Source of the DNA: a virus
Length of the DNA: 64,000 nt
Reading direction: 5' to 3' (one strand)
IMG/VR virus record: IMGVR_UViG_3300014613_000017
Span: 63,184 to 127,183 of that record
Below are positions 5,089 to 60,305 of this stretch, piece by piece. The position numbers were made by a program, and so were the translations under genes. Every line of letters begins with the position of its first letter. The first letter of the stretch is position 1. The notes under the pieces were generated by a model. That model did no database searches. It saw only the letters and a list, made by a program, of their open reading frames with translations, and was not told the origin of the DNA.

Positions 5089-5826
5089 ATTTTAATAATA
5101 TGATTTTTGATGTATAGTATATATAGTTAACTTATTATATGTAAGTCAGTTACTAATAGTAATACGGTTACTAAAAGTAAGTAAGTCGTTGAGATTGATT
5201 TCCTTGTTATAAGACGAAAAAATTCCTCACGTATGAGAATATAGTCACATGATACAATTAAAAAATTTTTCCGATATGCTGATTATTATATAATGATCTG
5301 AACAATATAAGCTGATTAATTCTAATCGTATATCATAATAAAACGGGAACTTTATTGTCTTATATATGAGCATAGTATCATAATGAATATTATAATACCT
5401 TTTAAAATGCTTATATATCAACGTTTATAGGATACGGGGGGTTGGTTTCAGATACATAGATTGCAGCATGGTGATGTGACGGGCTACCACCTTATATCAC
5501 ATACTCAACTTATTTTGAAATAGGACTATTTTATCCAATTAATACCAATTTAATTACATATAATACAATAGTCCTATTCGGCTTATTTCATGCTTCAATA
5601 ATGTATTCGTAATCTGTCTCGGAACGTTGCGAGTGAGACCCCTATTTCCCTATCTTTTACTTGTCTCCAATTACCCATTTTCCTCTCTATAATCACAATA
5701 TTCCACTCTGCACACTCATTTAACTCCCAATTTTCCCACTTCCAACCGAGATAATCATTCCCAATAAAAATAGAGAGGCAACAAATCACCTCTCCAATCA
5801 GCTCATATTCCCCTATTATCCATACT

Positions 5827-7560
5827 TCATCCATTAATAATCTTAATCTTATTCTTAACTCCCTCGAAGCCATTTTTCAAGTCACTCGGATACAAATATA
5901 TAGTCGAGTAGGATTTCAGCTCTTCATACAATTTCATTTTCTCATGAGTAGATTCAATATAGCTGCTGATAATCTCATTGTTTTTCTGACTTTCTATATA
6001 CATCCCCAAATATTCAATAATCCACACTCCATTTTCACTCAATACAAACCAATCAGGTCTCTTTCCTTTTAGGCTCACAACTTGATCGCTATTATTATAA
6101 TTATAAATCACATTCTTCAAGTTTTCACGCAGCACACCATCTACTTGTTCTTCTTCAATTGAATCAAAGTTGTTTCTATATCTACCTATCTCAAAGTCTG
6201 TTTCATCAAATTGGTCAGGATACAATTCATTAAACCACTCATATATATTTCCATTCTTATTGTTTACAATGTAATTCCATAAAGAAGGTGCAATGCTTCT
6301 TAATGATGATTTGGTTACATATAGTGGTATCTTCTCTATCTGCACCTTCATATCATTTTCAACAAGGAATCTTAAATCACTCAATACATTATTCCTATTC
6401 CATTTATAGTAGTTGCCTATATTCCTGAATTGGTATCCAGCATACTTTCCATCCCAATAATAAACAAAGAAACCACAGAGTCCTCCTAGTTGTCTTTCAA
6501 CAGACCTAATACCAGATTTAACAATTATCTTTTGGTAGTCAAAATCAAACGGATTATTAATTACAATATTATATTCTCTCAGGTAATTATCAAAATTTAT
6601 CTTGGCAATCTCTGGTGTAATGCTCTGTGATCCAATGGTATAACTAGGATACTTCCAGTTTTCATAAAAGAAGTTATCTCCGAAAAGAATCCTATACACG
6701 TCATCAATCTTACTCACACCATATTTCAAATAATCTAATCTTAATTTATTTTGCAGTAATTCATGATTCAGATTGCTCTCATTAACAGCCTTTCTAGCGT
6801 GAAGGTCTTTTATAATGAGAGTGAAATTTTCCATAGTATACATCCACTTAGGCAGACGTTTAAAGTCTTTCTTCAAATAGCCAATATACATTCCCAATAC
6901 ATCTTGTTTTAGATGGAATTCTATATACTCTTCAGCGTCATTCCTGACTAAGTAATTAAAATAATCATCATTGCTTTTGAATTTATAATTCTTACCTTGT
7001 CTACATCTTATGCATTGTGTATCCATATTGTTATAGAAGAAAACATCTGTAAGAGGGTAATTTCTCATACATTTAGAACATCTTTTGCCTGATACTATTG
7101 GATTCTCTGTTAAAGCTTGATTAATTACCATTATAGTCGCTTTATCATAATTTACTATTTCATCTAACTTGAATTGTTTTGTGTCATATTCCACTTCATA
7201 TAGCAGGGCTACGCCTAAGTATTCATGAAGCTTATTCTGTGATTGTCTCTGCTTTAAGCTTAGTCTAACTGCTTGGGTATTATTAGATAAAATTCTACCA
7301 AGCTCATTAGTCTCAATACAGTTAGAATTCTGCTTATTATTTCCACCAGTGATTCTTCCATAGTCTACATTTAGTTTCAGCAGAAATTTCTTATCTGCGT
7401 TTTTCATTATAGTGTCTGACGCTTGCTCTCTCAATAACAGCTTCTTTGCAACATAGCTAATAGGTAAATACTTATCTCCCTCAAAACATATCAATGGAAT
7501 CTTAACTCCACCTATTTCAATGATCTCTTGATAATAATCCATAGTAGTACCTTTTTTCAT
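5827..7560 (-). CDS. putative endonuclease: central CxxC Zn motifs, C-terminal PD-(D/E)xK-like domain
   Basis: CSKC...CIRC; C-terminal RPDWFV...IIEYLGMY, resembling the C-terminus of 23652-25007. Confidence 0.55.
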   Translation of the reverse strand: MKKGTTMDYYQEIIEIGGVKIPLICFEGDKYLPISYVAKKLLLREQASDTIMKNADKKFLLKLNVDYGRITGGNNKQNSNCIETNELGRILSNNTQAVRLSLKQRQSQNKLHEYLGVALLYEVEYDTKQFKLDEIVNYDKATIMVINQALTENPIVSGKRCSKCMRNYPLTDVFFYNNMDTQCIRCRQGKNYKFKSNDDYFNYLVRNDAEEYIEFHLKQDVLGMYIGYLKKDFKRLPKWMYTMENFTLIIKDLHARKAVNESNLNHELLQNKLRLDYLKYGVSKIDDVYRILFGDNFFYENWKYPSYTIGSQSITPEIAKINFDNYLREYNIVINNPFDFDYQKIIVKSGIRSVERQLGGLCGFFVYYWDGKYAGYQFRNIGNYYKWNRNNVLSDLRFLVENDMKVQIEKIPLYVTKSSLRSIAPSLWNYIVNNKNGNIYEWFNELYPDQFDETDFEIGRYRNNFDSIEEEQVDGVLRENLKNVIYNYNNSDQVVSLKGKRPDWFVLSENGVWIIEYLGMYIESQKNNEIISSYIESTHEKMKLYEELKSYSTIYLYPSDLKNGFEGVKNKIKIING

Positions 7561-11760: not shown

Positions 11761-12324
11761 ATGGATTTGGCAGATGTAAAAATTAGAGTAGATGATAGTA
11801 GTAATAGCTTATTCTTTAAGGACTTTACTCTTTCTGATATTAACGTAATAAAATTATTGATTCAATACAGATACAAATATGACAACTATCTTTATTCAGA
11901 GAAAAACTTCTTCTTTGGTGAAGCTGGTGAGATTCAATCAATGAATGAGGAGATTATACTTACTTATATATCTTTAGATCAGACCATTGTGGAATGCAAC
12001 TTCTCACCTGAACAACTGAAACTAATTGGATTGTACGAGCATGGATTCACCATAAAGGAAATGGCTACAGAGATGGGATTAGGCACAGACAAGTATATTA
12101 GAAAGAAATTTAACACGATATGCAATCAGATAGTTAAGCAAAACTTATGGAATTGGCGGAAAACGCACTATACACATTCGCTGAAACTCAAGAGCAAGAA
12201 ATGCAGTAAGTGTAAGGAGTTCTTACCAGCTACAGATGAGTTTTTTAGCCCGTTACACCATACAAAAGATGGCTTCCACAGCCAGTGTAAGAAGTGTAAA
12301 GATTTAAATATCCGAAAAACATAG
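11761..12324 (+). CDS. DNA-binding protein with sigma-region-4/LuxR-like HTH and C-terminal CxxC Zn finger
   Basis: FSPEQLKLIGLYEHGFTIKEMATEMG HTH pattern; CSKC...CKKC. Confidence 0.55.
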   Translation: MDLADVKIRVDDSSNSLFFKDFTLSDINVIKLLIQYRYKYDNYLYSEKNFFFGEAGEIQSMNEEIILTYISLDQTIVECNFSPEQLKLIGLYEHGFTIKEMATEMGLGTDKYIRKKFNTICNQIVKQNLWNWRKTHYTHSLKLKSKKCSKCKEFLPATDEFFSPLHHTKDGFHSQCKKCKDLNIRKT

Positions 12325-12927: not shown

Positions 12928-13230
12928 ATGACATTATTATCAAAAGGTGAATTCGTATCAGCATTAGCAGCACAACGAGAGGTTACTAAAAAGGAAGCGT
13001 CTGAATTATTGGATGATGTATTTGCAGTAATTGATAGTGCGTTAATTGATGAATTGAAAGATGTAAAACTAGGCGACATTGGAACACTGAAAGTGGTTGA
13101 AGTTCCTGAGCGTACCCATAAAAATCCTAAAACTGGTGAAGCAGTTATTAAACCTAAACATTATGCAGTGAAATTTAAAACTAATAAGAACTTCAAAGAA
13201 GACTTAGCTGAAGTTCCAGTAGAAGGGTAA
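12928..13230 (+). CDS. HU-family histone-like DNA-binding protein (YonN-like)
   Basis: SKGEFVSALA...LGDIGTLKVVEVPERTHKNPKTGEAVIKP...VKFKTNKNFK matches the HU/IHF pattern. Confidence 0.9.
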   Translation: MTLLSKGEFVSALAAQREVTKKEASELLDDVFAVIDSALIDELKDVKLGDIGTLKVVEVPERTHKNPKTGEAVIKPKHYAVKFKTNKNFKEDLAEVPVEG

Positions 13231-13320: not shown

Positions 13321-14586
13321 ATGGGGATGCTTATGACAGAAAAACTTTGGATTGCTGACACTAATTTTTTATACAACGGAGTCGAAGAAGCGATTGAAAG
13401 CAAGAAAATTGTTCTCATGTCTACTGTGCGTCAAGAGGCAGATAAACATAAGAATGCAACTGACGTTGACTTGCGATTCAAGGCTAGAAAGCTAAATAGA
13501 TTTGTTTTTGAAAACTACGATAAGTTTCATCACGATGTTGGTGAATACAATCCTGAAGTTATTTTGGGTGAAGATTATGATCGTGGAGTTATGGACAACC
13601 GAATCGTGGCTTGTGCAAAGGCAAATGGATATGGGATTCTCACAAATGATTTAAACCTCTTCTCTACTGCTAAAGCATTTGGAATTGAAGTTGACACACT
13701 TGATTCTGGATTATTGCTAAATAAAGGTGAATACACAGGTATCCTAAAAGTATATGTGACTAGAAACAGCACAGAAGAAGAGTTGTTTGCAAAAGTATAT
13801 CAAGACCCAAGTGTTAACTCATTTGGACTATTAACTAATCAATACATTGTTTTCTATGATAAAGATACGCCTATTGAATTTGACGAAGAGAAAAATCCAA
13901 CAAAATATAAAGTACTAGATAAACTTAGATGGAACGGAAAAGAGCTAGTTAAACTTAAACTTCCTCATAAGAAAGTTGTACAGGCTAGGAATGAAGAACA
14001 AGAATGTGCAATTGATTTGCTTAATAATGATGATATTCCAATTAAATTTATTATTGGTGTAAGCGGATCAGGGAAAACTAAACTATCTGCAAAATTAGGT
14101 ATCCACAAAGTAGTAGATACTGGAGCACATGCAAAAATTCTTGCAATCAGAAATCCAATTGGTTCAGGAGAGAATATTGGTTTCTTGCCAGGAGATTTCT
14201 CCGAAAAGACAGATAAATTCTTCGCACCAATCATTGATTGCTTAAAGGGTGGAGAACTGGAAGCTGCACTAATGGAACAGAAAGGTCAACTAGAGAAACA
14301 AATTCCTTACTTCTCAAAAGGGCTTACTTGGAACGATAGCTATGTACTTGTCGATGAAGCTGAGGATTTAAGCAGATCGAACGTCATCTTGCTTGGTTCT
14401 CGAATAGGCATACAGGCTACAATTGTCTTTGCTGGTGACTATAAACAAGTTGAAGATAAGTATTCTCGCAACAATGGTTTGATTCAAGCTATTGAAGAAC
14501 TTAAAGGTAAATCATTAGTTGGTGTAGTATCACTAAGCGATGACATTCGTTCTGAAGCTTCTAAGTTATTTGCTGAAATGAATTAA
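13321..14586 (+). CDS. phoH: PIN-PhoH (PhoH2-type) ATPase/ribonuclease
   Basis: N-terminal PIN motifs (IADTN, DNRIV, LTNDLNL); Walker A GVSGSGKT; VDEAEDL; AGDYKQ. Confidence 0.85.
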   Translation: MGMLMTEKLWIADTNFLYNGVEEAIESKKIVLMSTVRQEADKHKNATDVDLRFKARKLNRFVFENYDKFHHDVGEYNPEVILGEDYDRGVMDNRIVACAKANGYGILTNDLNLFSTAKAFGIEVDTLDSGLLLNKGEYTGILKVYVTRNSTEEELFAKVYQDPSVNSFGLLTNQYIVFYDKDTPIEFDEEKNPTKYKVLDKLRWNGKELVKLKLPHKKVVQARNEEQECAIDLLNNDDIPIKFIIGVSGSGKTKLSAKLGIHKVVDTGAHAKILAIRNPIGSGENIGFLPGDFSEKTDKFFAPIIDCLKGGELEAALMEQKGQLEKQIPYFSKGLTWNDSYVLVDEAEDLSRSNVILLGSRIGIQATIVFAGDYKQVEDKYSRNNGLIQAIEELKGKSLVGVVSLSDDIRSEASKLFAEMN

Positions 14587-14609
14587 TAGTAAATTGTAAT
14601 TAAAACTAC

Positions 14610-15285
14610 ACTTTTAACTGGAAGAGCGTACTCCATAAACGCTACATGGTCGTAGTCGCCATGAGCCTTTCCTCAAGGAATACCGTTAGGCGGATGACAG
14701 ATAAGGGCAAACTGCAACCCGACTTCATAAGTCCTGAGCGTGGTCAAGCAAAGGGATTAACAATACCTTAACTAGACCAACTTAATTGTTGGTTCAGACA
14801 ACCTTAAACAAACATTAAACTATGAGTGTGCGTAGCCTTAAATACTTTTGGCACATTCCATGACGCTTTTGCATTTGAAGTCTAAAAAGGGTGGCTCTCA
14901 GTAATAGCTTATGACTTTGGTGATTGGAGAGTAAATCACAAAAATGCAATCAACATCAAGTCTTAATTGGCTTAATCAAGAATTACTCAGCCCTTGCAGG
15001 AAACTGTAGTGCGGCAGTGGATGTCAGTAATGCTCCACATAAAAGTATTTTACACTCCATGTCCTACCTCCTAATCAGGGTTATTGAAAAAGGACGAAAA
15101 AACATCTCACGATTTCATTATCGTTAAAATGAATAAGGCTGATTACCTGACACGAGCAGTCGTCCTTCCCATAGTCGTTGGACATTGAGATGCCAACTGT
15201 ATTGGTTTTGCAGTTGGATACATAGATAGGGTTCATCATATCCCTTCCCAAAATGATGACGAGTACAAAGAGACTATTGAGAAAA
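14610..15285 (+). ncRNA. candidate large ornate non-coding RNA (ROOL/GOLLD size class, family unassigned)
   Basis: About 670 nt with no credible ORF; more than 15 hairpins or long-range helices, a GAAA tetraloop and crossing helices. Confidence 0.7.
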
Positions 15286-15300
15286 AGGAGAATGATATAT

Positions 15301-15501
15301 ATGGGGAAACAAACACTTAACTATTCATTTAAAAATGCTGAAATTTCACTAGAGGATAATACAATTACAGAGATTGGTAAGGAAGAAATTAAAACTTATG
15401 TATTGACTGACATCCTTCGCAAATTTGAAGGTGAAGGTAAAAAAGTAAATCTGACAATCCAAGAGTCATCTGAGCTTGAAACAGAATTGGATGGAGAGTG
15501 A
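15301..15501 (+). CDS. YonK-like protein
   Basis: Resembles SPbeta YonK (SFKNAEISLEDNTITE...LRKFEGE.KKVNLTI); ATG 15301 after RBS AAGGAG. Confidence 0.6.
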   Translation: MGKQTLNYSFKNAEISLEDNTITEIGKEEIKTYVLTDILRKFEGEGKKVNLTIQESSELETELDGE

Positions 15502-15505
15502 TTAG

Positions 15506-16693
15506 ATGATGAATCCTAAAAAGTATGATTCAGAATCAATTACTGACTACAAAATCCGTATCTGTGGAAACAAAGAGCTATTAAACCTCACATGGGTGCA
15601 AGTAAGTGAGCTGCTTAATAAAGAGACTGGTCAAAATTTTGGTGAATCAGCTTATCGTAAGTGGTTTCAGAATTTTAACAATGGTATCGAATACGCCACT
15701 GAAAACAATGTGGAGTCAAATGAGATTCTTGAAGAACTAAAAGCTAAAACTAAAGAATTAGAAATCGCTAAAATACAATATGCAGATCAGAAGCGTGAAT
15801 ATAAACACTACTTACGTCACGAAGGTCGATTAGACCATCTTTTGAAAACAATGCTTGAGTCAATTAAAGAGGAAATGAATACTAAGAAGCCTCTTGAGTG
15901 GATTAAGCCAGTTGTCAAAAATGACAGTAACGGAGCTTTAGCTTTAATGCTTAGTGACTTACACAGAGGACAGAAATCAGATAACCACTGGAACAAATTT
16001 GATGAAACAATATTTGATGAACGTATGAATCAAGTTGCAAACGAAACCGTTGAGTATCAGAAGCTAACAGGAACTAAAGAGCTTCATATTATGCAGCTAG
16101 GCGATCTTATTGAAGGAACACTTCATCGACTTACTAAAATTGGTGAGACTGAAACAGCCGTTGAGCAAACGCAACGAGTATCAGAATCACTAAGTGAATT
16201 GGTTTCTTACTTTGCTACTCATTTCGAGAAGGTTCACTTCTACAGCGTAAAAGGAAATCACGATAGAGTCTCTAGTCGTAAAGAAGAAGAGATTAAAACT
16301 GAAAGCTTCCATGACTTTGTTACATGGTACATGAAGGCTCGACTTGGCAAACATGAAAATGTTGTATTCCATGAGAATGAGTATGACAGTGAAATCATTG
16401 TAGCTGAAATTTGTGGCAAGAATTACTTTGGTGTACATGGTCATTTAGAATCTTATGGTAAAGTGATTCATGATTTAACTATGATGATTCAGAAGTTTCC
16501 TACTGCTGTATTGGCTGGACACATCCATCAAAACTTTGAAAAAGAAACTCATGGTGTTGATTTAATTGTTAACGGTGGATTTGCTGGAACGAATGGATAC
16601 GCTAAAGATAAACGATTACATTCTAAAGCACATCAGAAGCTATTGTGGCTTGATGAGAATGGACGTAGAGCTACATTTTATATTAAATTTTAA
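15506..16693 (+). CDS. calcineurin-like metallophosphoesterase (YonJ-like) with N-terminal DNA-binding/coiled-coil region
   Basis: SDLH, GDLIEG, GNHD, HGH, GHIH metal-binding motifs. Confidence 0.8.
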   Translation: MMNPKKYDSESITDYKIRICGNKELLNLTWVQVSELLNKETGQNFGESAYRKWFQNFNNGIEYATENNVESNEILEELKAKTKELEIAKIQYADQKREYKHYLRHEGRLDHLLKTMLESIKEEMNTKKPLEWIKPVVKNDSNGALALMLSDLHRGQKSDNHWNKFDETIFDERMNQVANETVEYQKLTGTKELHIMQLGDLIEGTLHRLTKIGETETAVEQTQRVSESLSELVSYFATHFEKVHFYSVKGNHDRVSSRKEEEIKTESFHDFVTWYMKARLGKHENVVFHENEYDSEIIVAEICGKNYFGVHGHLESYGKVIHDLTMMIQKFPTAVLAGHIHQNFEKETHGVDLIVNGGFAGTNGYAKDKRLHSKAHQKLLWLDENGRRATFYIKF

Positions 16694-56559: not shown

Positions 56560-57453
56560 CTATTGTTTATTTACAACCTCAATTAATTTTTTCAGCACAC
56601 TTACATAGTTTTCGTGGTACAACGCTAAACCTTTAACCCCCATTTCTTTTGTTAGTCGATTAACAAATTCAATTCTCTTTTCATCTTCAGTTACAAATAG
56701 TAAAAGAGGGAACATATGCTGACTAAAATATTTCTGCCACTCTTCATCCTTCCATAAACTTGATGATTTATATCTCTTATATTTCACAATCTTTTCTCTG
56801 ATTATCCTCGGCTCTTTTTCACGCAGCCCTTCTGATCCAGTATCGTATTCAATAAAGACGGCTAAATATTTCTCTCCTATTTTTAGTATCACTAGCACAT
56901 CAGGTATTAATGCAATTCTTTCCTCATTATATGAAAATACTTTTGGCTGCTCTAATTGCCACATTGAGATTTCATATCCACACTGCTCACAAAATGATAT
57001 GGTTTCAACTTCGACTTGATTAATACCATTGATGTGTTTGAAGCTACTTGGAAGGTTTCTTCTTACATAATATTGTCCTTTCATAGTAGTCCTCTTGTGA
57101 ATTATTCTTCTCTTATGTGGTTTACCTAAAATCAATGATCCTGCTTTATCTAATGCAAGTATAGCTGGATTGCTTCCTTTACCTAATTCTTGTTGTTCAT
57201 GCACCTTGTCAAATATCATTTTCTTGTACATCTTCTTAATGGAACGATTCAAGAGGACAGTGCGATTATTTCCCAGCTTACGAAAGGATGGACTGATTAT
57301 TTCTAAATGGTCACGCCTAACAAGTTTTCGGTCATATACGATTTGCAACAGCTCTTTTTCTCTATTGGTTAGTTTGCAATTTATCTTTATCCAGTCCAGT
57401 GTTACTTTTTGGATTTCTTCTCGTTCATACCAGCCTTCTCTAACTCTGCCCAC
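56560..57453 (-). CDS. replication-relaxation (Replic_Relax) family protein
   Basis: LTNREKELL wHTH, KHINGIN, LIPD...IEYDTGSE, PLLLFVT motifs. Confidence 0.75.
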   Translation of the reverse strand: MGRVREGWYEREEIQKVTLDWIKINCKLTNREKELLQIVYDRKLVRRDHLEIISPSFRKLGNNRTVLLNRSIKKMYKKMIFDKVHEQQELGKGSNPAILALDKAGSLILGKPHKRRIIHKRTTMKGQYYVRRNLPSSFKHINGINQVEVETISFCEQCGYEISMWQLEQPKVFSYNEERIALIPDVLVILKIGEKYLAVFIEYDTGSEGLREKEPRIIREKIVKYKRYKSSSLWKDEEWQKYFSQHMFPLLLFVTEDEKRIEFVNRLTKEMGVKGLALYHENYVSVLKKLIEVVNKQ

Positions 57454-60305
57454 TCTTCTTCACCAACTTGTTCAATCGAATGAAAGCCACTTTCAATTGA
57501 CTGTTCAATCATCTTAGAACTCCGTGCTAAGTTGTCATCTCTCACAATTTCTCTATCTACACCATATTCAGAAGCATATTCAGTTAAAAAGTTTGAATCT
57601 ACATCTCTACGTTTCTTGAAGTCCTTATTTTTATCAACACTTGGCAACATTTTAGCTTGAAATACATGGTTCTTGTTTGCCCATCTAATAGCAAATATTC
57701 CACAGTAGTCCATATCCATTAAGTTATTAAAGTCGGCTATTGTCATCGGATGTAGGAAATTATTCAAACTGCTGAATGCTTCACCTCCACCTTTAAGCAT
57801 GATCAGATTACAACCATTATCCATTATTGACTGTTTAATATCACCTTCGTATCCACGTCCTGCTTTAGCTAGGGAAGACCAACCATGAAGTGTGAACCAA
57901 TAACGTCCACTGTATTTTCTTGGCTCTTTGAATATGTCAATGAACAGTGTCGCTACAATTGGAATGTCGATAATTTGGTGTATTTCATCCATAATGATTA
58001 GTGTCTCAGGTCTGTATTCACGTCCACCAAATCCAACTTCACGAGATAATAGGACATTCCAAACTTTTGTAAAATAGTGAGCAAAGATAAATTTACGGAA
58101 TAATTGAGATACACCAGACTTGGGAATGTAGATAAGAATCATATAAGCCCCATTTTCGTCTCCATCCATCATTTGCCTGAAGTTTAATTTAACTTTTCCA
58201 TCTTCGTTTCTCATTGGCTTTTGAGCGATACAATCCCACAATTTTAAATCACGCTCTAGTTGAGAAAAGCGATTCTGAATTGTCTGCACAATTGTTTTTG
58301 TCTCATTGTTCATTGACATCTTATCGTACATTTCAATTTCAAGTTTTAAACGTTTGTTTTTGATAAAAGGAATTACCTCAAGCTGCCTAAATTCATCGTC
58401 TGTTAATACTCGCATAGCTTCGATATAACCCCAATCCTTATTAATTGCATGGATACATTGGAGTGCTGATGTAAACCATCTATCCATAGCAATTGTCTTA
58501 TCTGACTTAAGAATTTCTAATACTAATTTGGCTTCCATTTCTGCAAGAGTGTAGGAGTAGTCGTCATCTTTCATAACCTCAGTATTAAATTCATCAAGAT
58601 CAGCGTTATTTACTGCAATAGGGTTTTTAAAATTGCTATGATTAAGAACAATTACTCTGTCTTTCTGCCATTCTTGAACATGATTGTAGATATTTTTTAT
58701 CATACTTCCATCGGCAACATCAAACACAACCACTGATTTAGATTTCTTTTTCCATTCTTCCTTATCTTTAATATGAGCACCGAATGTGTACAGTGCCTGA
58801 TTTTCACTAAGGGAAGTCTTACCACTACCCATTGTTCCGAATACCATTGTAGCAGTACTACGGTCATCTAATCGCTGCTTGAATTTAGTGTAGCGACCTT
58901 TTTCAGTCCACTCATCACGAACATATCCACCAAAATGTAGTTTCTTAGGCTCTTTATCCAATGTGTGTCCGAATGGGATTGCTCCGTCATCTTCCTTGAT
59001 AAACTCCTCATCAATATCTGATCGTGTGAATCCGTCTTGAGAAATTACCTTGTATTCTTTTAACGTTTCTTTTGATGGCATTTTGATGATATTATTCATT
59101 TCCTTCTCAAAATAAACATCTGCTGGTTTACCTAAGAGTGGCTCATTTTTCTCTACTGCATGAATAATTGTCTTAATACCATCCTTTGATTTAATATTTG
59201 TCACTGTGTATCTATTATCACCATCCAGCAATGAGTACGATGTTTCAAGATTTCGGAAGGCGTGTTTGATTTTCTTTTCATCGTCCGACTGTCCAATTAT
59301 TCTAATCTGCATTTTGTACCCTTTTGTATTCGCATTGACTTTACTATCGCTGTATTTCAAGTCAAACATTGATTCCTTTTTCTCAGCCAATTCTTTTTCT
59401 GCTCCCATAATTTGACCAATCATAATGACAAACTCATCAAGAATTACATTGAACATGTCGAATACTCTTCCTAAAGCACCACCAACTGTGAGTCCATCTT
59501 CTCGAATTGCAGGTTTCCCGTTTTTCACTTGTTTGATTTTATTTGCGGCTTTTTCTTTCCATTTTTCACTAACTGGTTGAATGTTGTAGTCGATTAGAAG
59601 CTTATCGTCTTTTCCCATTGTAGAAGCAAGAGAGGATATGGAGGCAAGGAAGGAGTCATTTTGTGTTTTGTCGTGCTTTAATGAGAGTGCGTAGTGGTGT
59701 TTCAAATGCACATCCATTGCTTTAGCTTTCTCTGGATCAAAATCTACAATTCTCTCAGTCACCTCAGTAACATCAACTTGACCCCAATCTTGTCTAATTG
59801 CTGAAATGAAGTTTTTTGACCACTTAGTAGGAACTGTTAAATAAAACTTCATTTCACCATTTACAATTGCAATCTTGTATGAAACGACATCATTCATCTT
59901 AATTTTTACGCCTTTTCTGCTTATTCTTATTCGCTCAGGAGGATAGAACTTTTGAAATAGTCCATGAATTGTATTTAAAATCATGTCTGATGTGTGCTTA
60001 TTGTTGCTTCGATTGTCCTGTTCATAGTCAAGATTACGCTTTCTGAATCCGAATTCATGTTGAGCTTCTGGTGCATTATTAGGAGTTATGCAATATGTGG
60101 TCACTGGTTCACGATGTAGGGTAATAGGGAGGGTGTACTGATCATCTTTAGTTGGTATGATTTTTGGTAGTTTAGCAGGCATTTTCCATTCAAGAAGCTT
60201 CTTCTTGGTGAAACCTTCTTGTTGGTTATTATCAACTATTACAACATCTCTTGGCATACTATCCTTTGGAAATTGCCACACGATAGGTGCTGATATTGAT
60301 ACCAA
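57402..60305 (-). CDS. VirB4/VirD4/HerA-like P-loop ATPase
   Basis: Walker A GTMGSGKT, VVVFD, Walker B LIIMDEIHQ, EPRKY. Confidence 0.75.
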   Translation of the reverse strand: MVSISAPIVWQFPKDSMPRDVVIVDNNQQEGFTKKKLLEWKMPAKLPKIIPTKDDQYTLPITLHREPVTTYCITPNNAPEAQHEFGFRKRNLDYEQDNRSNNKHTSDMILNTIHGLFQKFYPPERIRISRKGVKIKMNDVVSYKIAIVNGEMKFYLTVPTKWSKNFISAIRQDWGQVDVTEVTERIVDFDPEKAKAMDVHLKHHYALSLKHDKTQNDSFLASISSLASTMGKDDKLLIDYNIQPVSEKWKEKAANKIKQVKNGKPAIREDGLTVGGALGRVFDMFNVILDEFVIMIGQIMGAEKELAEKKESMFDLKYSDSKVNANTKGYKMQIRIIGQSDDEKKIKHAFRNLETSYSLLDGDNRYTVTNIKSKDGIKTIIHAVEKNEPLLGKPADVYFEKEMNNIIKMPSKETLKEYKVISQDGFTRSDIDEEFIKEDDGAIPFGHTLDKEPKKLHFGGYVRDEWTEKGRYTKFKQRLDDRSTATMVFGTMGSGKTSLSENQALYTFGAHIKDKEEWKKKSKSVVVFDVADGSMIKNIYNHVQEWQKDRVIVLNHSNFKNPIAVNNADLDEFNTEVMKDDDYSYTLAEMEAKLVLEILKSDKTIAMDRWFTSALQCIHAINKDWGYIEAMRVLTDDEFRQLEVIPFIKNKRLKLEIEMYDKMSMNNETKTIVQTIQNRFSQLERDLKLWDCIAQKPMRNEDGKVKLNFRQMMDGDENGAYMILIYIPKSGVSQLFRKFIFAHYFTKVWNVLLSREVGFGGREYRPETLIIMDEIHQIIDIPIVATLFIDIFKEPRKYSGRYWFTLHGWSSLAKAGRGYEGDIKQSIMDNGCNLIMLKGGGEAFSSLNNFLHPMTIADFNNLMDMDYCGIFAIRWANKNHVFQAKMLPSVDKNKDFKKRRDVDSNFLTEYASEYGVDREIVRDDNLARSSKMIEQSIESGFHSIEQVGEEEWAELEKAGMNEKKSKK

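What the first reader, a model, noticed from the sequence alone, without database searches (positions are those of the whole stretch)
14610..15285. Candidate ~670-nt ornate, pseudoknotted non-coding RNA between phoH and yonK
This is a long gap in an otherwise tightly packed, co-directional operon, richer in G+C than neighbouring intergenic DNA and dense with complementarity. Hairpins seen: AGCGT/ACGCT, CATGG/CCATG, GACTT/AAGTC, ACCAAC/GTTGGT, GTGATT/AATCAC, TGCAG-GAAA-CTGTA (GNRA loop 15000-15003), GTGGA/TCCAC, TTCATT/AATGAA, CCAACTGTA/TGCAGTTGG (15193-15217), TCATCAT/ATGATGA. Long-range helices: 14840-14849 with 15041-15050 (10 bp), 14824-14830 with 15051-15057, 15171-15176 with 15272-15277. 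Three helices cross each other (15073-78/15139-44, 15090-97/15160-67, 15103-09/15186-92), which implies pseudoknots. Size and phage context match the large ornate RNAs of Firmicutes phages (ROOL, GOLLD), some of which assemble into RNA-only multimers. I cannot assign it to a family, so it may be a new class. A TAAATTGTAA variant of the genome-wide motif sits just upstream (14590) and could be its promoter.
Basis: partly seen in the sequence, partly recalled or inferred. Interest (0 to 1): 0.85.

Follow-up and report, generated by a model that had tools for sequence, protein, structure and literature searches.

The report
Pseudoknotted leader RNA of phage late operon
The 714-base gene-free gap is not one giant RNA: only about 165 bases (15054-15220) form a conserved pseudoknotted RNA, in no catalogue, that also sits ahead of the late genes of SPbeta and SIOphi-type Bacillus phages.

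Summary
A 670-nt ornate RNA is not supported. Fold z-scores are ordinary, long-range complements occur at chance frequency, and the 5' 460 nt has no homolog anywhere.

What is real is a ~165-nt module at 15054-15220 on the + strand. It is the best-conserved DNA between this phage and the distant phage Perkons: 88% identity, against about 70% for the best genes.

A covariance model built from these two copies finds the same fold in four places:
- the yonN-yonK gap of SPbeta
- 25 Spbetavirus records
- 14 Herelleviridae records, upstream of the portal genes
- 40 IMG/VR contigs

Over 39 distinct sequences, 95.7% of cells pair. 31 of 39 pairs show compensatory changes, against 10.2 in shuffles (0/500). 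These include 4 of 5 pairs of a loop-loop pseudoknot.

Rfam 15 has no matching family. In SPbeta the module lies downstream of the mapped YonO start site, inside the 'unannotated non-coding RNA' of Forrest et al. 2017. Earlier notes of this scan already described modular folded leaders in SPbeta-type phages. This window extends one module to a phage record in which no YonO was found.

Function is unknown. My best guess is an RNA-level, polymerase-independent role on the late transcript.

The parts
13321..14586 (+). PIN-PhoH gene, upstream neighbour
   Evidence: Pfam PhoH 1.7e-33 and PIN_4 1e-07.
14590..14599 (+). TAAATTGTAA, a one-mismatch variant of the strand-polarised gene-boundary motif TAAATTATAA; likely promoter of the leader
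   Evidence: 54 oriented copies in the 127-kb record. The motif plus about 18 nt downstream is conserved in L030 at 89% over 28 nt.
14617..15053 (+). Unconserved part of the leader, with hairpins but no homolog
   Evidence: No blastn, tblastx or covariance-model match in any collection searched. z-scores are ordinary.
15054..15220 (+). Conserved pseudoknotted RNA module ('module A')
   Evidence: 88% identity to Perkons. Model R2, built from Perkons alone, scores it 104 bits, E 5e-19. Homologs occur in SPbeta, Herelleviridae phages and IMG/VR contigs. Covariation.
15060..15096 (+). P1 (15060-64/15092-96) with inner stem P1i (15066-69/15078-81). The loop carries the 5' strand of the pseudoknot (15072-78) and an anti-SD-like ACCUCCU.
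   Evidence: P1: all 5 pairs covary and 100% of cells pair. P1i is invariant and includes a U.G pair.
15103..15192 (+). P2 (15103-09/15186-92). It encloses P2a (15114-19/15128-33), P2b (15136-38/15146-48, whose loop 15139-45 is the 3' strand of the pseudoknot), the conserved CCUGACA and a variable insert (15159-84).
   Evidence: P2: 8 of 8 pairs covary. P2a: 6 of 6 covary. Pseudoknot: 4 of 5 covary, 96.7% paired. The insert is absent from Perkons.
15193..15217 (+). P3 hairpin, directly abutting P2
   Evidence: 8 of 8 pairs show changes on both sides across the family.
15233..15259 (+). P4 hairpin TCATCAT/ATGATGA with a UCCCUU-containing loop. A counterpart exists only in Perkons.
   Evidence: Not seen after P3 in SPbeta or SIOphi.
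15270..15300 (+). Conserved yonK translation-initiation region
   Evidence: 93% identity over 27 nt to L030. GGAG lies 10 nt before the ATG at 15301.
15301..16693 (+). YonK (15301-15501) and a YonJ-like metallophosphoesterase (15506-16693), the first genes after the leader
   Evidence: Pfam YonK 4.6e-12 and Metallophos. Same order as in SPbeta.

Best explanation
What it is (about 0.95). Positions 15054-15220 on the + strand encode one member of an uncatalogued family of about 155-170-nt RNAs.

The fold has these parts:
- a hairpin P1/P1i
- a three-way junction made of P2, P2a and P2b
- an abutting hairpin P3
- a 6-7-bp pseudoknot between the P1 loop and the P2b loop
- invariant unpaired stretches: UACCUCCU, GAAAA, UAAGG, CCUGACA

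The module is transcribed with the late genes as part of a long non-coding leader. The rest of the 714-nt gap is a promoter-like motif, unconserved leader sequence and the yonK ribosome-binding region.

How it works is inferred, not shown. Where the next gene was identified, the module lies on the coding strand ahead of the first late or structural genes. That holds both in phages that use their own YonO polymerase and in phages where none was found: Herelleviridae records gave no YonO match apart from BUCT082, and none was found in this record. Its distance to the next gene varies from 81 to about 1500 nt, and no terminator follows it.

So I think it most likely acts on the RNA itself rather than on a polymerase or on one start codon. 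My leading guess (about 0.35) is a compact, nuclease-resistant 5' structure that defines and protects the 5' end of the late mRNA. A processed, trans-acting stable RNA is nearly as likely.
For: Conservation:
- It is the best-conserved DNA between G000 and Perkons: 87.6% over 105 nt, against about 69-70% for the RNR and DnaE genes.

Fold:
- The Perkons MFE alone gives this fold, z = -2.73.
- R2, built from Perkons only, finds the window copy at 104 bits.
- R3 finds SPbeta L151:7854-8008 at 48.9 bits, E 3e-11.

Spread:
- The SPbeta copy matches 25 Spbetavirus and 14 Herelleviridae records.
- 40 IMG/VR contigs are confirmed by R3.

Covariation:
- 39 distinct rows, 95.7% of cells paired, 31 of 39 pairs compensatory against 10.2 +/- 2.2 in shuffles (0/500). 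Slid controls give 15 pairs or fewer.
- Pseudoknot: 4 of 5 pairs covary.
- My own table over four clades: 26 of 39 positions compensatory, 227 of 234 cells canonical.

Strand:
- The invariant U.G pair 17/26 of P1i, and U.G/G.U cells such as pair 60/174 of P2, would be A.C mismatches on the - strand.

Context:
- In IMG/VR members HU lies upstream on the same strand in 33, YonK lies downstream in 24, and YonO is upstream in 29.
- In SIOphi the module lies in a 1.47-kb ORF-free gap upstream of the portal genes.
- The primer-extension primers for the YonO promoter map to L151:7285-7308 and 7501-7527, 330-570 nt upstream of the SPbeta module.
- No + strand terminator-like site lies between 13000 and 17000.
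- Perkons has a recurrent TATAATTAA promoter-like motif 27 nt upstream of its module.
Against: - No expression data exist for this phage.
- The window copy alone does not fold unusually well, z = -0.71.
- The alignment used for the covariation count was fitted to the model, which biases it toward the structure.
- Most IMG/VR rows are close SPbeta relatives, so independent events are fewer than cell counts suggest. About five or six clades carry the signal.
- Nothing tested here separates the stabiliser idea from a trans-acting RNA, a riboswitch or a ribozyme.
- In SPbeta the module sits several hundred nt downstream of the start site. A 5'-end role there would need upstream cleavage first.
Confidence: 0.7

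Rival explanations
1. The module is a gene for a stable trans-acting RNA. It is cut out of the late leader and acts elsewhere, for example as a decoy or anti-defence RNA, or as an sRNA that uses its anti-SD-like ACCUCCU and C-rich loops.
For: - The same slot upstream of yonK holds tRNA genes in the closest relatives L005, L007, L028 and L031.
- The SPbeta and phi3T leaders also hold the catalogued sRNA-type motif DUF3800-VIII.
- Module order differs between phages, as expected for independent units.
- The module occurs in unrelated phage families.
- An earlier scan note reads the SPbeta gap as an RNA-gene array.
Against: - No terminator or obvious processing signal flanks the module.
- ACCU of the anti-SD-like stretch is paired in P1i and the rest sits in the pseudoknot, so it is not free.
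- Perkons has ACCUACU instead.
- No target was identified.
Confidence: 0.3
2. The module is a riboswitch-like sensor or a self-cleaving ribozyme that times or processes the late transcript.
For: It is a compact junction-plus-pseudoknot fold with invariant unpaired nucleotides (UACCUCCU, GAAAA, UAAGG, CCUGACA) across clades whose helices have changed completely. That pattern is typical of binding pockets or active sites.
Against: - No expression platform follows it: no terminator, and the distance to the next start codon ranges from 81 to about 1500 nt.
- No match to any Rfam riboswitch or ribozyme, even at E up to 10.
Confidence: 0.12
3. The module is a processive antitermination RNA, like HK022 put or the Bacillus EAR element. 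It modifies the transcribing polymerase so that the 40-kb late operon is read through.
For: It lies at the head of a very long co-directional operon on the transcribed strand. It is pseudoknotted and about 150 nt, as EAR is. Its distance to the next gene is variable.
Against: - The same RNA occurs in phages whose late genes are read by the unrelated single-chain YonO polymerase (SPbeta, Perkons) and in phages where no YonO was found: 13 of the 14 Herelleviridae records gave no YonO match, and none is found in this record.
- This window has promoter-like motifs at nearly every gene boundary.
- No Rfam match to the EAR family.
Confidence: 0.1
4. One reading: the whole gap of about 670 nt is one large ornate RNA of the ROOL/GOLLD kind.
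For: - The gap is long and ORF-free, with slightly raised G+C.
- Local hairpins are enriched.
- A 10+7-bp long-range complement, 14824-49 with 15041-57, exists.
Against: - No ROOL or GOLLD match, nor any other Rfam family at gathering score; at E up to 10 only chance-level snoRNA-type hits.
- Whole-gap z = -1.58, and the 14820-15060 domain z = -0.65.
- Long-range complements occur at chance frequency.
- Nothing left of 15054 is conserved in Perkons, SPbeta, SIOphi or the closest relative L030. In L030 the interior of the gap is replaced by unrelated sequence half as long.
Confidence: 0.04
5. The conserved stretch is not an RNA at all. It is either a DNA site (origin, pac or att site) or a small protein gene: the 34-codon TTG ORF at 15084-15188, which is 25 codons in Perkons.
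For: - The two ORFs share 20 of 25 residues.
- High nucleotide identity between distant temperate phages can reflect shared att or pac sites.
Against: - The ORF has no Shine-Dalgarno sequence. By my reading, its 8 nucleotide differences fall in 7 codons, only 2 of them silent, while silent sites are otherwise unchanged.
- All six frames score alike in tblastx.
- In other clades the sequence changes completely but the base pairing is kept.
- U.G pairs make the structure strand-specific.
- No copy was found in 370 host-family genomes.
- The SPbeta pac site lies between yonR and yonP.
Confidence: 0.02

Closest known systems
The 'unannotated non-coding RNA' between the YonO start site and yonK in SPbeta (Forrest et al. 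2017, PMC5467207)
   Same: The SPbeta homolog of the window module (L151:7854-8008) lies between the primer pair used to map that start site and yonK. It is on the same strand and ahead of the same genes, YonK and YonJ.
   Different: The paper gives no sequence, structure, boundaries or function. The SPbeta leader is 1.68 kb and carries other modules. No YonO is found in this phage record, PIN-PhoH is inserted after HU, and the module lies only 81 nt before yonK.
DUF3800-VIII RNA (Rfam RF03075) and the other modules of the SPbeta-type late leader
   Same: These are small structured RNAs in the same HU-yonK gap of SPbeta and phi3T, on the same strand. A second uncatalogued module is shared by SPbeta and SIOphi.
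   Different: They have different sequence and fold. Neither DUF3800-VIII nor the second module is detectable in this window.
ROOL and GOLLD (large ornate RNAs of Firmicutes phages and prophages)
   Same: Phage context in Firmicutes, pseudoknots, unknown function.
   Different: Those RNAs are about 500-800 nt, and no match to either was found. The conserved unit here is about 165 nt.
EAR (eps-associated RNA) and HK022 put antitermination RNAs
   Same: Pseudoknotted or stem-loop RNA elements of about 70-120 nt inside or at the head of long operons. They act in cis, and the distance to the next gene does not matter. This comparison rests on my own knowledge.
   Different: No Rfam match to the EAR family. 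Those elements bind the host multi-subunit polymerase, whereas this family also occurs in operons read by YonO.
phi29 pRNA and flavivirus xrRNA (analogies by shape only)
   Same: pRNA is an RNA of about 170 nt from a Bacillus phage whose function depends on a covarying loop-loop contact. xrRNA is a three-way junction plus pseudoknot that stops a 5'-3' exonuclease. Both comparisons rest on my own knowledge.
   Different: No sequence or Rfam similarity. Neither multimerisation nor nuclease resistance was tested.

Membership tests
SPbeta/SIOphi late-leader 'module A' RNA (uncatalogued, defined here) | P1 stem enclosing the invariant UACCU(C/A)CU-N5-GGGU hairpin, followed by N4-GAAAA | tested here: met
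   Window 15060-15096. This pattern retrieved 49 IMG/VR loci, 40 of them confirmed by the model. All 5 P1 pairs covary.
SPbeta/SIOphi late-leader 'module A' RNA (uncatalogued, defined here) | Three-way junction P2/P2a/P2b with UAAGG-loop-CCUGA(C/A)A | tested here: met
   Window 15103-15192. P2 covaries at 8 of 8 pairs and P2a at 6 of 6.
SPbeta/SIOphi late-leader 'module A' RNA (uncatalogued, defined here) | Pseudoknot between the P1 loop and the P2b loop | tested here: met
   Window UAAUCAG (15072-78) with CUGAUUA (15139-45). SPbeta has UUACACG with CGUGUAA. 4 of 5 counted pairs covary.
SPbeta/SIOphi late-leader 'module A' RNA (uncatalogued, defined here) | P3 hairpin abutting P2 | tested here: met
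   Window 15193-15217. 8 of 8 pairs changed on both sides.
SPbeta/SIOphi late-leader 'module A' RNA (uncatalogued, defined here) | Same strand as, and upstream of, the first late or structural genes, in a long ORF-free leader | tested here: met
   Window: 81 nt before yonK. IMG/VR members: HU upstream and YonK/YonJ downstream. SIOphi: upstream of portal.
SPbeta/SIOphi late-leader 'module A' RNA (uncatalogued, defined here) | Transcribed as RNA | not testable with these tools
   Shown only indirectly, for SPbeta, from the start-site mapping.
ROOL (Rfam) / GOLLD (Rfam) | Match to the family covariance model; size about 500-800 nt | tested here: not met
   No match at gathering score in the whole window. 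No ROOL or GOLLD match at E up to 10 in the gap.
OLE, group I/II introns, tmRNA, RNase P, tRNA | Match to the Rfam model or ARAGORN | tested here: not met
   The only trace is a 9.2-bit group I intron hit at E = 7 on the - strand.
DUF3800-VIII RNA (RF03075) | Match to the Rfam model at gathering score | tested here: not met
   Present in SPbeta (47.5 bits) and phi3T (44.7 bits), absent from the window.

The most novel reading that the evidence does not exclude
Module A is a new functional class of phage RNA that works without a dedicated partner gene. One possibility is a bacterial counterpart of exonuclease-resistant RNAs, blocking RNase J1 at the head of late mRNAs. Another is an RNA whose covarying 7-bp loop-loop contact is used between molecules to build multimers, as in phi29 pRNA. 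A third is a new ribozyme or riboswitch class. It is shared by unrelated Bacillales phage families and can be tested directly in SPbeta of B. subtilis 168.
Probability: 0.25. Interest if true: 0.85.

Novelty: new variant of a known kind. Interest (0 to 1): 0.55.

Why it matters
A strongly covarying, pseudoknotted RNA sits at the head of the late genes in at least two unrelated families of large Bacillales phages. It is absent from Rfam and mentioned in print only as 'an unannotated non-coding RNA'.

It occurs in SPbeta of B. subtilis 168, one of the most tractable phage-host systems. Its function can therefore be tested at once by deletion and by compensatory pseudoknot mutants.

It occurs both with the phage polymerase YonO and in phages where none was found, which argues for an RNA-level role. 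It may explain how very long late transcripts are made stable or processed, or it may reveal a new trans-acting phage RNA.

For this window, the result replaces a speculative 670-nt giant RNA with a precisely bounded 165-nt element.

Tried and rejected
Searches that found no further homolog of the window copy:
- Exact-pattern scans of IMG/VR with three conserved runs of the window/Perkons core gave only chance matches, one of them inside a metallophosphoesterase gene.
- A 17-mer scan of metagenome contigs gave 108 chance matches and no homolog.
- blastn against plasmids: nothing.
- blastn of the module against 370 genomes of the family of a host of a related prophage gave three short chance matches.
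- Model R1 on 151 genomes of that family, and R3 on 151 genomes of the order, gave nothing or chance-level hits with broken helices.
- Protein-anchored relatives from IMG/VR and GTDB (L005-L013, L028-L032) lack the module.
- The family was found only after the Forrest et al. remark led me to fetch the SPbeta gap.

Readings I rejected:
- Decayed tRNA genes. Relatives carry tRNAs in this slot, but ARAGORN and the Rfam tRNA model find nothing in the gap, even at E up to 10.
- A pseudogene.
- A type I toxin. The - strand has a 25-codon ORF with a perfect RBS (15063 to 14986), but it is not conserved in Perkons (read by eye).
- A plasmid-type single-strand origin.
- An att or pac site.

Other:
- The 967-aa ORF at 57402-60305 is not YonO.
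- MAFFT misaligned the 3' half of the module, so I used model-guided and hand alignments.

Full report
SETTING

The window is the right half of a 127-kb IMG/VR virus record, linear and estimated 68% complete. Gene order is HU (12928-13230), PIN-PhoH (13321-14586), a 714-nt gap, YonK (15301-15501), then a YonJ-like metallophosphoesterase (15506-16693). All are on the + strand. This is the head of the late or structural arm of an SPbeta-like phage. No YonO polymerase homolog is found in the record, and the 967-aa ORF at 57402-60305 is not YonO.

THE OBSERVATION

The gap is real.
- None of its short ORFs matches Pfam or PHROGs.
- tblastx finds no gene remnant, and the one conserved stretch scores alike in all six frames.

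Against dinucleotide shuffles:
- Local hairpins are enriched, 17 against 8.2 +/- 3.6.
- Long-range 7-mer complements are not, 18 against 19.0.

Folding energies:
- The whole gap folds with z = -1.58 on + and -0.46 on -.
- 120-nt sliding windows look like the flanking coding DNA.
- The proposed closed domain 14820-15060 has z = -0.65.

Rfam 15 finds nothing at gathering score in the window, and only chance-level hits at E up to 10 in the gap. ARAGORN finds no tRNA.

WHAT IS CONSERVED

blastn against 50,697 phage records gave a single hit: 105 nt (15054-15158) at 87.6% identity to Psychrobacillus phage Perkons. There it lies in an unannotated 510-nt gap between the YonO-like polymerase gene and the HU gene.

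In a whole-genome comparison the two phages otherwise align only in ribonucleotide-reductase and DnaE genes, at 69-70%. This non-coding stretch is therefore their best-conserved DNA.

A small ORF overlaps it: 34 codons here, 25 in Perkons. It has no ribosome-binding site. Its 8 nucleotide differences fall in 7 codons, only 2 of them silent, while other silent sites are unchanged (my reading). The constraint is on nucleotides, not on a protein.

THE FOLD

The Perkons sequence alone folds with z = -2.73 into these elements:
- a hairpin P1/P1i
- a multiloop closed by P2, holding hairpins P2a and P2b
- an abutting hairpin P3
- a further hairpin P4

The window's MFE shares P1, P2, P3 and P4.

Between the two copies all ten substitutions inside helices are compensated: 5 pairs changed on both sides, none on one side only, 100% of cells paired. 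My own column-permutation tests gave P = 0.036 for the gapless core and P = 0.0013 with the 3' half. A model built from Perkons alone scores the window copy at 104 bits, E 5e-19, over 15054-15220.

FINDING THE FAMILY

Pattern and model searches seeded from the two copies found nothing more (see Tried and rejected). The lead came from Forrest et al. 2017 (PMC5467207). [quoted passage not shown]

SPbeta has a 1,681-nt gap between yonN (HU) and yonK. Model R3 hits it at L151:7854-8008 with 48.9 bits, E 3e-11. The helices have entirely different sequences but keep their pairing. The P1 loop and P2b loop have changed together:
- window and Perkons: UAAUCAG with CUGAUUA
- SPbeta: UUACACG with CGUGUAA

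The SPbeta copy in turn matches 25 Spbetavirus records and 14 Herelleviridae myophages, including SIOphi, 000TH008, Yucatan, Mawwa and the KKP_404x phages. In SIOphi it lies on the coding strand in a 1.47-kb ORF-free gap upstream of the portal genes.

A family-wide pattern, TACCTMCT-N5-GGGT-N4-GAAAA, retrieved 49 IMG/VR loci. R3 confirmed 40 of them.

COVARIATION

On the 45-row alignment (39 distinct rows), with the pseudoknot added:
- 95.7% of 1,453 cells pair.
- 31 of 39 pairs have changes on both sides, against 10.2 +/- 2.2 in shuffles (0/500).
- The covariation score is 0.268 against 0.076.
- Partners slid by 1-3 columns give 15 such pairs or fewer and at most 51% pairing.

Per helix, pairs with changes on both sides:

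| Helix | Covarying pairs |
|---|---|
| P1 | 5 of 5 |
| P2 | 8 of 8 |
| P2a | 6 of 6 |
| P3 | 8 of 8 |
| Pseudoknot | 4 of 5 |
| P1i | invariant |
| P2b | none on both sides (one pair varies on one side only) |

A hand table over four clades, whose strings I verified in the sequences, gives 26 of 39 positions compensatory and 227 of 234 cells canonical.

Caveats: the alignment is model-fitted, and most rows are close SPbeta relatives. The signal rests on about five or six clades: the window, Perkons, the SPbeta group, the SIOphi group, and the divergent IMG/VR contigs L174, L186 and L188/L191/L160.

Conserved U.G pairs make the structure specific to the + strand.

CONTEXT

In the IMG/VR members:
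- HU lies 350-1075 nt upstream on the same strand in 33.
- YonO lies upstream in 29.
- YonK lies 556-1498 nt downstream in 24.

The primers Forrest et al. used to map the YonO start site lie at L151:7285-7308 and 7501-7527. The SPbeta module is therefore 330-570 nt downstream of that start, inside the late leader.

In Perkons a recurrent promoter-like TATAATTAA motif sits 27 nt upstream of the module.

In this window:
- The gap begins with a variant of the gene-boundary motif TAAATTATAA, which has 54 oriented copies in the record.
- That motif plus 18 nt, and the last 27 nt before yonK, are the only parts shared with the relative L030. The interior of L030's gap is unrelated and half as long.
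- The closest relatives carry tRNA genes in this slot.
- No + strand terminator-like site follows the module.

The SPbeta and phi3T leaders also hold Rfam DUF3800-VIII. They share a second uncatalogued module with SIOphi. Neither is detectable in the window.

INTERPRETATION

Shown:
- a bounded RNA fold of about 165 nt with a pseudoknot
- family membership
- strand
- synteny at the head of late operons

Inferred:
- It is transcribed here as part of the leader.
- Its role does not depend on which polymerase reads the operon, because it occurs both with YonO and in phages where no YonO was found.
- It does not control a particular start codon, because the spacing to the next gene varies.

I rank the mechanisms as follows:

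| Mechanism | Probability |
|---|---|
| RNA-level cis role: a nuclease-resistant 5' structure that stabilises or defines the late mRNA | about 0.35 |
| Processed trans-acting RNA | about 0.3 |
| Riboswitch or ribozyme | about 0.12 |
| Antitermination | about 0.1 |

EARLIER NOTES OF THIS SCAN

Notes on SPbeta-type phages (e1-2679372, e1-5343813, e1-5352808, e1-5842533) had already read the HU-yonK gap as a chain of folded RNA modules in the YonO-driven leader. I reached SPbeta independently and agree with them.

This window adds three things:
- One module extends to a phage record in which no YonO was found, to Perkons and to Herelleviridae.
- Its pseudoknot covaries.
- The remainder of this particular gap is not conserved.

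Noticed in passing
whole record; window copies e.g. 1347, 2756, 11580, 12811, 16698, 23409, 27123, 32326, 37452, 48363, 56374: TAAATTATAA, with extended consensus aaaTAAATAA-TAAATTATAA-t, occurs 54 times in the 127-kb record, always oriented with the local genes. It often lies within 0-20 nt of the next ribosome-binding site. It reads TATAAT when followed by T, so it looks like a phage-specific promoter core without a -35 element. A sigma-like protein is encoded at 11761-12324.
   Followed up: partly
L022-L024 (Perkons MT325768.1), e.g. record 131925, 121907, 135231: Perkons has its own recurrent strand-biased motif, TATAATTAA(g). There are dozens of copies on the early strand and only a few on the late strand. 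One lies 27 nt upstream of its module A, and one lies just before the major capsid gene.
   Followed up: partly
L005:4387-4463 and 5376-5446; L007:7188-7595; L028:6378-7446; L031:6506-7729: In the closest relatives (62-68% identical YonJ) the slot just upstream of yonK holds one to three tRNA genes instead of module A. This suggests the slot is a hot spot for RNA genes.
   Followed up: partly
L151:8384-8449 (SPbeta); L156:2028-2093 (phi3T): The Rfam motif DUF3800-VIII (RF03075) passes its gathering score inside the yonN-yonK leader, about 375 nt downstream of module A in SPbeta (420 nt in phi3T). No DUF3800 gene is annotated in the loci shown.
   Followed up: no
L151:7573-7640; L152:3363-3430; L153:3371-3437; partly L001:4221-4240: A second uncatalogued module (UUGCGGUGUA...UUCGG...UACAC...GAUGCGUCU) is shared by the SPbeta group and SIOphi-type phages at 72-78% identity. 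It lies upstream of module A in those phages but downstream of it in Perkons, so the modules are shuffled. It was not found in the window.
   Followed up: partly
L030:7403-7783 (prophage of Bacillus sp. FJAT-22090): The equivalent gap shares only its first 28 nt and last 27 nt with the window. Its 320-nt, G+C-richer interior has no match in the phage collection.
   Followed up: partly
window 14986-15063, - strand: A 25-codon ORF coding for a hydrophobic peptide, with a perfect AGGAGG 7 nt before its ATG, lies antisense to the 5' edge of module A. It is not conserved in Perkons, so it is probably a by-product of the anti-SD-like ACCUCCU on the + strand (read).
   Followed up: partly
L188:10350-10919; L160:2175-2744; window 13321-14586: In a divergent G+C-richer clade, module A is followed about 550 nt downstream by a 189-aa protein with a weak PIN-domain match (22.6 bits, just under Pfam's cut-off). 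In the window a PIN-PhoH gene lies just upstream of the gap. This may be an association with PIN nucleases, or coincidence.
   Followed up: no
L025:7380-9073 (Staphylococcus phage SPbeta-like KT429160.1): A 1.7-kb stretch without annotated genes follows the YonJ-like gene in this staphylococcal relative. There HU and YonK are adjacent. Model R3 was not run on it. The earlier models R1 and R2 found nothing there.
   Followed up: no
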